A stretch of DNA of 64,000 bases from the NCBI RefSeq assembly GCF_003334405.1, contig NZ_QOWM01000003.1. One strand, 5' to 3'. Numbering within the stretch: the first letter of the stretch is position 1; the number at the start of each line of letters is the position of its first letter. Shown piece by piece: positions 15,912-15,960 of the stretch. The DNA comes from Escherichia coli. Lineage in GTDB: Bacteria; Pseudomonadota; Gammaproteobacteria; Enterobacterales; Enterobacteriaceae. The translations under genes were made by a program, and so were the position numbers. The notes under the pieces were generated by a model that was given only the letters and a program-made list of their open reading frames with translations, made no database searches and was not told where the DNA came from.

Positions 15912-15960
15912 CGTATCGTCTGGCCCTGGTGGGGTAAAGCGCCAGGGCCAGAAGTCGATA
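15912..15960 (+). terminator. nested inverted repeat immediately downstream of paaK (stem-loop / stabiliser)
   Basis: cgtatcg...TGGCCCTGG-N12-CCAGGGCCA...cgatacg; outer and inner arms both complementary; no clear U-run. Confidence 0.35.

What the first reader, a model, noticed from the sequence alone, without database searches (positions are those of the whole stretch)
15912..15960. Nested inverted repeat between paaK and paaX
Outer arms cgtatcg/cgatacg enclose inner arms TGGCCCTGG/CCAGGGCCA. It has no U-tract, so it is more likely an mRNA stabiliser or partial attenuator separating paaA-K from paaXY than a full terminator.
Basis: seen in the sequence. Interest (0 to 1): 0.2.

Follow-up and report, generated by a model that had tools for sequence, protein, structure and literature searches.

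The report
U-less RNA hairpin after paaK
A very stable RNA hairpin with no U-tract sits between the E. coli phenylacetate genes paaK and paaX; published transcript maps show transcription reads through it and that an RNA from the opposite strand ends at its base, so it behaves as a decay barrier rather than a terminator, which is an ordinary kind of element.

Summary
Window 15912-15962 forms a 20-bp bulged hairpin (RNA dG -37.2 kcal/mol, z -5.3). It is the most stable 56-nt segment of the 64-kb plus strand. It starts directly after the paaK stop codon and ends 20 nt before the Px (paaXY) transcription start.

Neither strand has a U-tract. The sequence is single-copy in E. coli (3166 of 5426 complete genomes), so it is not a REP element. 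It matches no Rfam family and is unannotated in MG1655.

Two published maps bear on function:
- SMRT-Cappable-seq lists full-length capped transcripts from a promoter inside paaJ that cover paaK+paaX(+paaY). The hairpin is therefore read through and is not an efficient terminator.
- Term-seq lists abundant minus-strand RNA 3' ends at window 15908 and 15914, at the base of the minus-strand hairpin.

Best reading: a U-less protective stem-loop that stops 3'-to-5' exonucleases. This is shown on the minus strand and inferred for the paaA-K mRNA.

Other Enterobacteriaceae keep the Px promoter/PaaX operator block at a fixed 44 nt from the paaX ATG. The slot upstream holds unrelated hairpins, often dispersed repeats.

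It is a new member of a known kind, of low interest.

The parts
14598..15911 (+). paaK coding sequence (phenylacetate-CoA ligase); stop codon TGA at 15909-15911
   Evidence: RefSeq annotation of identical sequence. MG1655 1462125-1463438 maps to the window with offset 1447527.
15912..15962 (+). The hairpin. Outer stem 15912-15918 / 15956-15962 (7 bp). Inner stem 15919-15931 / 15940-15952 (13 bp, one G-U). Loop 15932-15939. Bulge 15953-15955.
   Evidence: Fold -37.2 kcal/mol, z -5.3. Inverted repeats I1 and I3. Most stable 56-nt window of the 64-kb plus strand. Single-copy in E. coli. No Rfam match at a meaningful score.
15908..15914 (-). Published minus-strand RNA 3' ends at the base of the minus-strand hairpin. 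Window 15908 = MG1655 1463435 (LB, OD 0.4). Window 15914 = MG1655 1463441 (M63, OD 0.4).
   Evidence: Adams et al. 2021 Term-seq, Supplementary file 1. Average read counts are 26,321 and 27,693, class 'antisense' to paaK. The context strings are the reverse complement of the hairpin.
15968..15976 (+). Px extended -10 element: TG at 15968-15969 and TATGAT at 15971-15976. Conserved in all genera examined.
   Evidence: Read from the sequence. The published TSS lies 6 nt downstream. The block TGCTATGATTC lies exactly 44 nt before the paaX ATG in nearly all loci.
15982..15982 (+). Px transcription start site of paaXY (MG1655 1463509)
   Evidence: SMRT-Cappable-seq operon 'b1399|b1400', TSS 1463509, forward strand.
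15973..16010 (.). PaaX operator: half-sites TGATTC (15973-15978) and GAAGCG (16005-16010; GAATCG in most E. coli), 26 nt apart. It spans -9 to +29 of Px.
   Evidence: Consensus TGATTC(N27)GAATCA and PaaX auto-repression of Px, as quoted in review PMC9493321. Sequence. Conserved across genera.
16012..16962 (+). paaX coding sequence (repressor)
   Evidence: ORF list and RefSeq annotation.
17565..17607 (+). Canonical intrinsic terminator after paaY (13-bp stem followed by TTATTTGAGT), shown for contrast with the paaK hairpin
   Evidence: Terminator scan. T-tail score 3.03.
13844..13878 (+). Internal promoter inside paaJ: CTGACA (13844-13849), 17-nt spacer, GAGAAT (13867-13872), published TSS 13878 (MG1655 1461405). 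It is the source of the read-through paaK-paaX(-paaY) transcripts.
   Evidence: SMRT-Cappable-seq 'novel' operons. Hexamers read from the sequence.

Best explanation
The element is a GC-rich RNA stem-loop with no U-tract. It lies in the 100-nt spacer between the catabolic operon (ending in paaK) and the regulatory operon paaXY of E. coli. I propose it works as a barrier to 3'-to-5' exonucleases (PNPase, RNase II) and so defines a stable RNA 3' end. It does not stop RNA polymerase.

Shown:
- The hairpin exists and is exceptionally stable.
- It has no U-tract on either strand.
- Plus-strand transcripts that start upstream of it continue into paaX and paaY.
- Px starts 20 nt downstream of it.
- A minus-strand RNA has steady-state 3' ends 2 nt inside and 4 nt beyond the base of the hairpin.

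Inferred:
- The minus-strand RNA runs on into the untranslated, C-rich antisense of paaK, is released by Rho, and is trimmed back to the hairpin. It may be a short divergent transcript from the pseudo-symmetric Px -10 region.
- When the operon is induced, read-through paaA-K-X-Y RNA is cleaved downstream and trimmed back to the same hairpin. This would make the paaA-K part longer-lived than the paaXY part.
- Whether the hairpin is maintained by selection for this effect, or is a tolerated relic, is not settled.
For: - Stability and uniqueness: dG -37.2, z -5.3. It is the top-ranked 56-nt window of 15,986.
- No T-tract.
- Read-through: SMRT-Cappable-seq operons b1398|b1399 and b1398|b1399|b1400 from TSS 1461405, with no paaK-only unit.
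- 3' ends at the hairpin base: Term-seq 1463435(-) and 1463441(-), about 26-28 thousand reads each, in two growth conditions. No other 3' ends were found at MG1655 coordinates beginning 14633, 14635-14638 or 14640.
- Matches a described class. Dar & Sorek 2018 found that Rho-dependent transcripts end immediately downstream of stable stem-loops not followed by U-rich sequence. These stem-loops protect against PNPase and RNase II, and rut sites lie just downstream.
- Minus-strand RNA downstream of the hairpin is C-rich and G-poor: C 0.31-0.35, G 0.20-0.22.
- Antisense RNAs are the largest class of Rho targets.
- Plus-strand use is favoured by wobble pairs. The G-U pair in the reference, and the polymorphisms 15912 C>T, 15915 A>G and 15924 C>T, keep pairing only in plus-strand RNA. 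In E. coli alleles the plus strand folds 5-9 kcal/mol better than the minus strand.
- Across 63 distinct spacers from other taxa the plus strand folds better in 47. After a composition control this is weak: 36 against 21, p = 0.02.
- Nearly every genus has some strong hairpin in the same slot, z -2 to -11.
- Induction ratios drop across the junction.
Against: - No plus-strand 3' end at the hairpin has been observed. The operon is repressed in all mapped conditions, so the stabiliser role for paaA-K mRNA rests on analogy.
- The minus-strand ends are not listed among the bicyclomycin-sensitive Rho regions of Adams et al.. The Rho step is therefore unverified.
- The 5' end of the minus-strand RNA is unknown. 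Four attempts to find one in a published paper or its supplements failed.
- Selection on pairing is not demonstrable within E. coli. There are no double compensatory changes. About 20% of genomes (625 of 3166) fall in the 3-mismatch (94.5%) identity band, and the sampled alleles of that band carry T15927G, which puts a G-A mismatch in the inner stem.
- In other genera the slot is often filled by dispersed repeats.
- Rosenbergiella has no hairpin there at all.
Confidence: 0.55

Rival explanations
1. Partial (leaky) intrinsic terminator or attenuator on the plus strand. The strong hairpin makes a fraction of polymerases coming from Pa stop despite the poor U-tract. This would lower read-through into Px and paaXY.
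For: - Very stable hairpin placed right after a stop codon.
- Induction falls from 13.8x (paaK) to 4.8x (paaX).
- In Klebsiella and Raoultella the analogous hairpins are followed by ATTTTCC or ATTTCC, which is a short T run.
Against: - T-tail score 0.36 against 3.03 for the paaY terminator, and only 2 T in the first 8 nt.
- The terminator scan is negative.
- Full-length transcripts cross it, and no paaK-only transcript from the same TSS is listed although it would be long enough (about 2.1 kb) to be captured.
- The drop in induction ratio is expected anyway, because paaXY has its own basal promoter.
Confidence: 0.15
2. The hairpin's main role is on the minus strand. It ends or stabilises a short divergent non-coding RNA fired from a bidirectional Px promoter. 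This would keep antisense transcription out of paaK, or make a stable RNA of about 55 nt.
For: - The only experimentally mapped 3' ends in the locus are on the minus strand at its base. No paaXY 3' end is listed in that data set.
- The Px -10 TATGAT pairs with a minus-strand AATCAT (15977 to 15972) such that positions 2 and 6 of the two hexamers pair. This is the geometry reported for bidirectional promoters.
- The predicted minus-strand TSS, near 15964-15966, lies just before the hairpin.
Against: - No minus-strand TSS could be found in any paper or supplement consulted.
- The promoter scan finds no minus-strand promoter at its threshold.
- The minus-strand fold is weaker. E. coli polymorphisms create C-A mismatches on that strand, where it is 5-9 kcal/mol worse.
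- There is no U-tract on that strand either.
Confidence: 0.15
3. Neutral relic. The hairpin is a decayed palindromic insertion in a permissive spacer that physically blocks exonucleases but is not kept for any function.
For: - In other genera the same slot holds unrelated hairpins of variable number and length: REP/BIME-like elements and CCCTCTCC/GGAGAGGG repeats. The latter also occur elsewhere in the same loci.
- A covariance model of the E. coli hairpin finds no homologue in other genera.
- Rosenbergiella lacks any hairpin there.
- The hairpin's 5' arm and loop are the most polymorphic part of the spacer, and a frequent identity band includes alleles with a mismatch in the stem.
Against: - It is single-copy in E. 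coli, so there is no evidence of a mobile family.
- It is retained in all 3166 paa-positive complete genomes, and every allele sampled folds at -27 kcal/mol or better.
- Strand-biased wobble pairs favour the plus-strand RNA.
Confidence: 0.15
4. Translation-coupled down-tuning of PaaK, or an RNase III processing site. A stable stem that begins 0 nt after the stop codon could hinder the terminating ribosome, as reported for REP elements within 15 nt of stop codons (Liang, Rudd & Deutscher 2015, recalled from my own knowledge). Alternatively, the 20-bp stem could be cut by RNase III to uncouple paaK from paaXY RNA.
For: - The hairpin starts at the first base after TGA.
- In most other genera the hairpin starts 0-14 nt after the stop.
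- The stem has 20 bp in total.
Against: - Nothing here tests it.
- The stem is interrupted by a 3-nt bulge.
- Proximity to stop codons is also what any 3' stabiliser or inserted repeat would show.
Confidence: 0.05

Closest known systems
U-less protective stem-loops at the 3' ends of Rho-dependent or processed transcripts (Dar & Sorek 2018, NAR, PMC6061677)
   Same: Energetically stable stem-loop with no U-rich tail. A steady-state RNA 3' end lies at or just after its base (minus strand). C-rich, G-poor RNA lies immediately downstream.
   Different: Bicyclomycin sensitivity was not seen in the one data set checked. The RNA that ends there is an unannotated antisense or divergent RNA, not an mRNA. 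The plus-strand case is untested.
Intercistronic stabilising hairpins that give differential decay within polycistronic RNA, such as REP in malE-malF (Newbury et al. 1987, own knowledge) and the examples in Dar & Sorek 2018, PLoS Genet, PMC5927463
   Same: Hairpin between an upstream highly expressed unit and downstream genes on a read-through transcript. Expression induction steps down across it.
   Different: The sequence is unique, not a REP. The downstream genes also have their own promoter. Decay rates were not measured.
Canonical intrinsic (Rho-independent) terminator
   Same: GC-rich hairpin directly after a stop codon.
   Different: No U-tract, and documented read-through. The true terminator of the cluster is after paaY (17565-17607).
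REP/BIME elements of enterobacteria
   Same: Imperfect palindrome in an intergenic spacer next to a stop codon. In Kluyvera and Citrobacter the same slot holds sequences that look like REPs.
   Different: One copy per E. coli genome, and no REP consensus.
Bidirectional sigma-70 promoters (Warman et al., bioRxiv 10.1101/2020.01.31.928960)
   Same: The Px -10 hexamer and a minus-strand AATCAT overlap with positions 2 and 6 paired.
   Different: This concerns the neighbouring promoter, not the hairpin. The divergent TSS is not demonstrated.

Membership tests
Intrinsic terminator | GC-rich stem-loop | tested here: met
   20 bp, dG -37.2 kcal/mol.
Intrinsic terminator | U-tract immediately 3' of the stem | tested here: not met
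   The scan found none on either strand. The tail is ACCTGTGCTA, T-tail score 0.36, against 3.03 for the paaY terminator.
Intrinsic terminator | Transcripts end at the site | tested here: not met
   Plus-strand full-length transcripts cover paaK+paaX(+paaY), and no paaK-only unit is listed. Caveat: these are non-inducing conditions and transcripts from one internal promoter.
U-less protective stem-loop (Dar & Sorek class) | Stable stem-loop not followed by U-rich sequence | tested here: met
U-less protective stem-loop (Dar & Sorek class) | Precise steady-state RNA 3' end immediately downstream of the stem | tested here: met
   Minus strand: ends 4 nt beyond and 2 nt inside the base, in two conditions. 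The plus strand is not testable, because no data exist under induction.
U-less protective stem-loop (Dar & Sorek class) | C-rich, G-poor (rut-like) untranslated RNA downstream | tested here: met
   Minus strand: C 0.31-0.35 against G 0.20-0.22 over 60-150 nt, antisense to paaK. Plus strand: only 49 untranslated nt before paaX.
U-less protective stem-loop (Dar & Sorek class) | Dependence on Rho, and trimming by PNPase or RNase II | tested here: inconclusive
   No entry naming paaK or paaX in the bicyclomycin Rho-region table. The authors say that table under-counts. Exonuclease mutants cannot be tested here.
REP/BIME | Many dispersed copies per genome | tested here: not met
   blastn with the 55-nt hairpin at E <= 10 gives a median of 1 place per genome (range 1-2), always at paaK-paaX. 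There is no second copy in the window.
REP/BIME | REP consensus sequence | tested here: not met
   By reading the sequence against the consensus recalled from my own knowledge. The covariance model of the hairpin does not hit the REP-like elements of other genera.
PaaX operator | TGATTC-N26-28-GAATCA | tested here: not met
   The hairpin holds no half-site. The operator lies downstream at 15973-16010.
Known RNA family (Rfam 15) | Match at the gathering score | tested here: not met
   The best match is 22.8 bits, to an insect lncRNA model with a threshold of 55.
Stop-proximal hairpin that down-regulates translation (Liang et al. 2015) | Stable hairpin within 15 nt of the stop codon | tested here: met
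   Starts 0 nt after TGA.
Stop-proximal hairpin that down-regulates translation (Liang et al. 2015) | Ribosome stalling, tmRNA tagging, reduced protein | not testable with these tools
   Needs experiments.

The most novel reading that the evidence does not exclude
Px is a bidirectional, PaaX-controlled promoter. Its divergent product would be a stable RNA of about 50-60 nt made almost entirely of this hairpin. The hairpin would then act on both strands as an insulator between the catabolic and regulatory paa operons. It would cap the paaA-K mRNA on one strand and stop antisense transcription into paaK on the other.
Probability: 0.2. Interest if true: 0.4.

Novelty: new member of a known kind. 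Interest (0 to 1): 0.25.

Why it matters
It refines the transcript map of a well-studied catabolic cluster in three ways.
- The paaK-paaX junction is not a terminator.
- Catabolic-operon transcription can run into the repressor genes paaX and paaY. This could feed back on induction.
- An unannotated minus-strand RNA ends at the hairpin.

Beyond that, it is one more example of a common class of RNA 3'-end-protecting stem-loops. It does not open a new question.

Tried and rejected
- Dispersed repeat (REP, BIME or MITE): rejected, because the sequence is single-copy.
- Known RNA family: none.
- Annotated feature in MG1655: none.
- Homologous hairpin in other genera: the covariance model R1 built from E. 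coli alleles found nothing at the orthologous slot. A visual resemblance to Citrobacter and Yokenella hairpins (TCTG...CAGA, CCCT...AGGG) was not pursued, because those belong to a dispersed CCTCTC/GAGAGG repeat family.
- Covariation within E. coli: uninformative. 95.7% of cells are paired and there are no double changes.
- DNA-binding palindrome for LldR or PdhR: the papers that mention the paaX promoter use it only as a negative control.
- d'Aubenton-Carafa discriminant score: it was negative even for the clear paaY terminator when computed with modern energies. I therefore used only the T-tail term.
- Primary papers on Px (Fernandez 2014; Ferrandez 1998 and 2000) are not held.
- Minus-strand TSS: Thomason 2015 is not held. 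The supplements of the bidirectional-promoter paper and the Cappable-seq paper held no matching coordinates.
- Other 3'-end sources: the Dar & Sorek supplements are not held, and the TERMITe supplements have no entry.

Full report
**What is there**

The window carries the E. coli phenylacetate (paa) cluster. The 136 nt around the finding are 100% identical to many E. coli chromosomes, including K-12 strains. RefSeq annotates the flanking genes as paaK and paaX. paaK ends with TGA at 15909-15911, and paaX starts at 16012.

Directly after the stop codon the sequence forms a bulged hairpin:
- Outer stem: 15912-15918 with 15956-15962 (7 bp).
- Inner stem: 15919-15931 with 15940-15952 (13 bp, one G-U pair).
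- Loop: 8 nt, GGGUAAAG.
- Bulge: 3 nt on the 3' side.

**Is it more than chance?**

Yes.
- The plus-strand RNA folds at -37.2 kcal/mol, z = -5.3, and no shuffle of 200 does as well.
- The minus strand folds at -35.2 kcal/mol, z = -5.8.
- Among 15,986 overlapping 56-nt windows of the plus strand of the whole 64 kb it is the most stable by a wide margin. The next is -29.9; the mean is -11.6 with sd 4.4.

**What it is not**

- It has no T-tract on either strand. The terminator scan is negative. The T-tail score is 0.36 (plus) and 0.90 (minus), against 3.03 for the obvious terminator after paaY at 17565-17607.
- It matches no Rfam family.
- It is not annotated in NC_000913.3.
- It is not a dispersed repeat. 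A blastn search with the 55-nt hairpin alone at E <= 10 finds it in 3166 of 5426 complete E. coli genomes. The median is one place per genome (range 1-2), always at the paaK-paaX junction. The window holds no second copy.

**Surroundings**

Comparison of the paaK-paaX spacer in about 65 of the 80 Enterobacterales loci fetched with PaaX splits the spacer into two parts.

The 3' part is a rigid module. The block (C/T)(T/A)TGCTATGATTCA lies exactly 44 nt before the paaX ATG in nearly all genera, and it is followed by ...GAATGAATCA just before the ATG. In the window this reads as:
- An extended -10 promoter element: TG at 15968-15969 and TATGAT at 15971-15976.
- The two PaaX half-sites: TGATTC at 15973-15978 and GAAGCG at 16005-16010 (GAATCG in most E. 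coli).

This agrees with the operator consensus TGATTC(N27)GAATCA and with PaaX auto-repression of Px by steric hindrance, as summarised in PMC9493321. SMRT-Cappable-seq places the paaXY start at MG1655 1463509, which is window 15982, 6 nt after that -10 hexamer. The coordinate offset of 1447527 was checked on paaJ and paaK.

The hairpin therefore occupies -70 to -20 of Px. Px transcripts do not contain it.

The 5' part of the spacer is variable, from 16 to 310 nt. In almost every genus it holds one or more strong hairpins, with z from -2 to -11. These hairpins are unrelated in sequence:
- CCCTCTCC/GGAGAGGG elements, sometimes in tandem arrays, in Enterobacter, Lelliottia, Citrobacter and others.
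- Sequences that look like classical REP/BIME in Kluyvera and some Citrobacter.
- CCCGGC-type hairpins followed by ATTTTCC in Klebsiella and Raoultella.

The CCTCTC/GAGAGG hairpins also occur elsewhere in the same loci, so they are dispersed repeats. A covariance model of the E. coli hairpin finds no homologue at the orthologous slot in other genera. Rosenbergiella has only 16 nt there and no hairpin.

**Experimental data from the literature**

1. *Read-through on the plus strand.* SMRT-Cappable-seq sequences full-length primary transcripts (PMC6131387). Its Suppl. Data 2 lists two 'novel' operons, b1398|b1399 and b1398|b1399|b1400.
   - Both start at 1461405, which is window 13878, inside paaJ.
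   - A good promoter can be read just upstream: CTGACA, 17 nt, GAGAAT.
   - These molecules contain paaK and continue through the hairpin into paaX and paaY.
   - No paaK-only unit from that start is listed.
   - So the hairpin is not an efficient terminator.

2. *3' ends on the minus strand.* Term-seq from Adams et al. 2021 (PMC7815308, Supplementary file 1) lists two minus-strand 3' ends.
   - 1463435, in LB at OD 0.4, average 26,321 reads.
   - 1463441, in M63 at OD 0.4, average 27,693 reads.
   - Both are classed as antisense to paaK, and their context strings are the reverse complement of this hairpin.
   - In window coordinates they are 15908 and 15914. That is 4 nt beyond and 2 nt inside the base of the minus-strand hairpin.
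   - No other 3' ends were found at MG1655 coordinates beginning 14633, 14635-14638 or 14640.
   - No paaX or paaY 3' end is listed.

3. *Induction ratios.* In a tynA knockout microarray, induction declines along the cluster and across the junction: paaJ 22.8x, paaK 13.8x, paaX 4.8x, paaY 2.9x (PMC4640556). This is compatible with partial uncoupling. It is confounded by the independent, auto-repressed Px promoter.

**Mechanism**

The pattern is a very stable stem-loop, no U-tract, and a sharp steady-state 3' end at its base, followed by C-rich, G-poor untranslated RNA. For the minus strand, C is 0.31-0.35 and G is 0.20-0.22.

Dar & Sorek 2018 described this pattern for Rho-dependent transcripts. 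In their work the stem-loop protects the RNA from PNPase and RNase II after release further downstream. Adams et al. make the same general point and note that antisense RNAs are the main Rho targets.

I therefore read the hairpin as an exonuclease barrier that defines 3' ends, not as a terminator.
- For the minus strand this is supported by data, apart from the Rho and exonuclease steps.
- For the plus strand it is an inference. Read-through paaA-K-X-Y RNA would be trimmed back to the hairpin, leaving a capped paaA-K mRNA.

**Which strand matters?**

- The wobble pair in the reference (15930 U with 15941 G) pairs only in plus-strand RNA. So do three of the polymorphisms seen in E. coli: 15912 C>T, 15915 A>G and 15924 C>T.
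- E. coli alleles fold 5-9 kcal/mol better on the plus strand.
- Across 63 distinct spacers the plus strand folds better in 47 (Wilcoxon p = 6.6e-5).
- After a composition control the bias is weak (36 against 21, p = 0.02), and the sequences are not phylogenetically independent.
- I take this as a mild indication that the structure is used in the paaK 3' region.

**Limits on any claim of selection**

- Within E. coli there are no double compensatory changes.
- Two polymorphisms break pairs: 15919 T>C and 15927 T>G. About 20% of genomes (625 of 3166) fall in the 3-mismatch (94.5%) identity band of the hairpin, and the sampled alleles of that band carry 15927 T>G.
- The slot is filled by mobile repeats in other genera.
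- A neutral-relic reading therefore remains open.

**Origin of the minus-strand RNA**

I could not find a minus-strand start site. One attractive source is divergent firing of Px itself.
- The minus-strand hexamer AATCAT (15977 to 15972) overlaps TATGAT so that positions 2 and 6 of the two hexamers pair.
- This is the geometry reported for the commonest class of bidirectional promoters.
- The predicted start, near 15964-15966, would give an RNA of about 50-60 nt consisting of little more than the hairpin.
- This is inference only.

**Verdict**

- 'Not a full terminator' is now backed by direct data.

The element is an unannotated but ordinary member of a known class, of low general interest. 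It has two modest points of local interest: read-through from the catabolic genes into the repressor operon, and an unannotated minus-strand RNA that ends at the hairpin.

Noticed in passing
window 13844-13878 (+), inside paaJ: An internal promoter: CTGACA, 17 nt, GAGAAT, with a published capped TSS at MG1655 1461405 (window 13878). It gives paaK-paaX(-paaY) transcripts that RegulonDB did not list, as reported in a SMRT-Cappable-seq supplement.
   Followed up: partly
window 15912-15962: Polymorphism is asymmetric between the arms. Among ten sampled E. coli alleles, 5-6 sites vary in the 5' arm and 3 in the loop, but none in the 23-nt 3' arm plus bulge (one-sided p about 0.01-0.02 by a hand hypergeometric count). 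The 3' arm overlaps -42 to -20 of Px. The K-12 allele turns two ancestral wobble pairs (15912, 15915) into Watson-Crick pairs, judged against the divergent strain SCPM-O-B-8794.
   Followed up: partly
window 15964-15977 (-): The Px -10 region is pseudo-symmetric (TATGAT / AATCAT). A weak TTGTTA lies 15 nt upstream on the minus strand, and the same arrangement appears in an Enterobacter spacer read by eye. Px may be a bidirectional promoter, but no TSS data were found.
   Followed up: partly
window 16005-16010: The distal PaaX half-site reads GAAGCG in this window and in strain 14EC047, but GAATCG in the three other E. coli alleles compared across this site and GAATCA in other genera. This lineage therefore carries a T>G change in the operator of its own repressor gene.
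   Followed up: no
loci L010, L018, L020, L021, L034, L035, L070, L072, L080, L083 (about 2650-2950): In Enterobacter, Lelliottia and Pseudocitrobacter the paaK-paaX spacer holds 2 to 6 tandem copies of a nested CCCTCACCC / CCCTCTCCC...GGGAGAGGG / GGGTGAGGG palindromic repeat. Folding energies reach -213 kcal/mol (L034).
   Followed up: partly
window 17865-23633 (+): A 1922-aa uninterrupted ORF with a highly repetitive N-terminal two-thirds and a C-terminal part that looks like an autotransporter barrel follows paaY. In K-12 MG1655 the gene at this position (ydbA) is, from my own knowledge, broken by IS elements. If so, the window is not from MG1655 itself, although the hairpin region is identical.
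   Followed up: no
L022, L059, L062-L064, L069, L073, L079: In several genera (Pseudenterobacter, Cedecea, Buttiauxella, one Klebsiella michiganensis) paaK and paaX are 0.8-2.5 kb apart, so something is inserted between them. The content was not examined.
   Followed up: no
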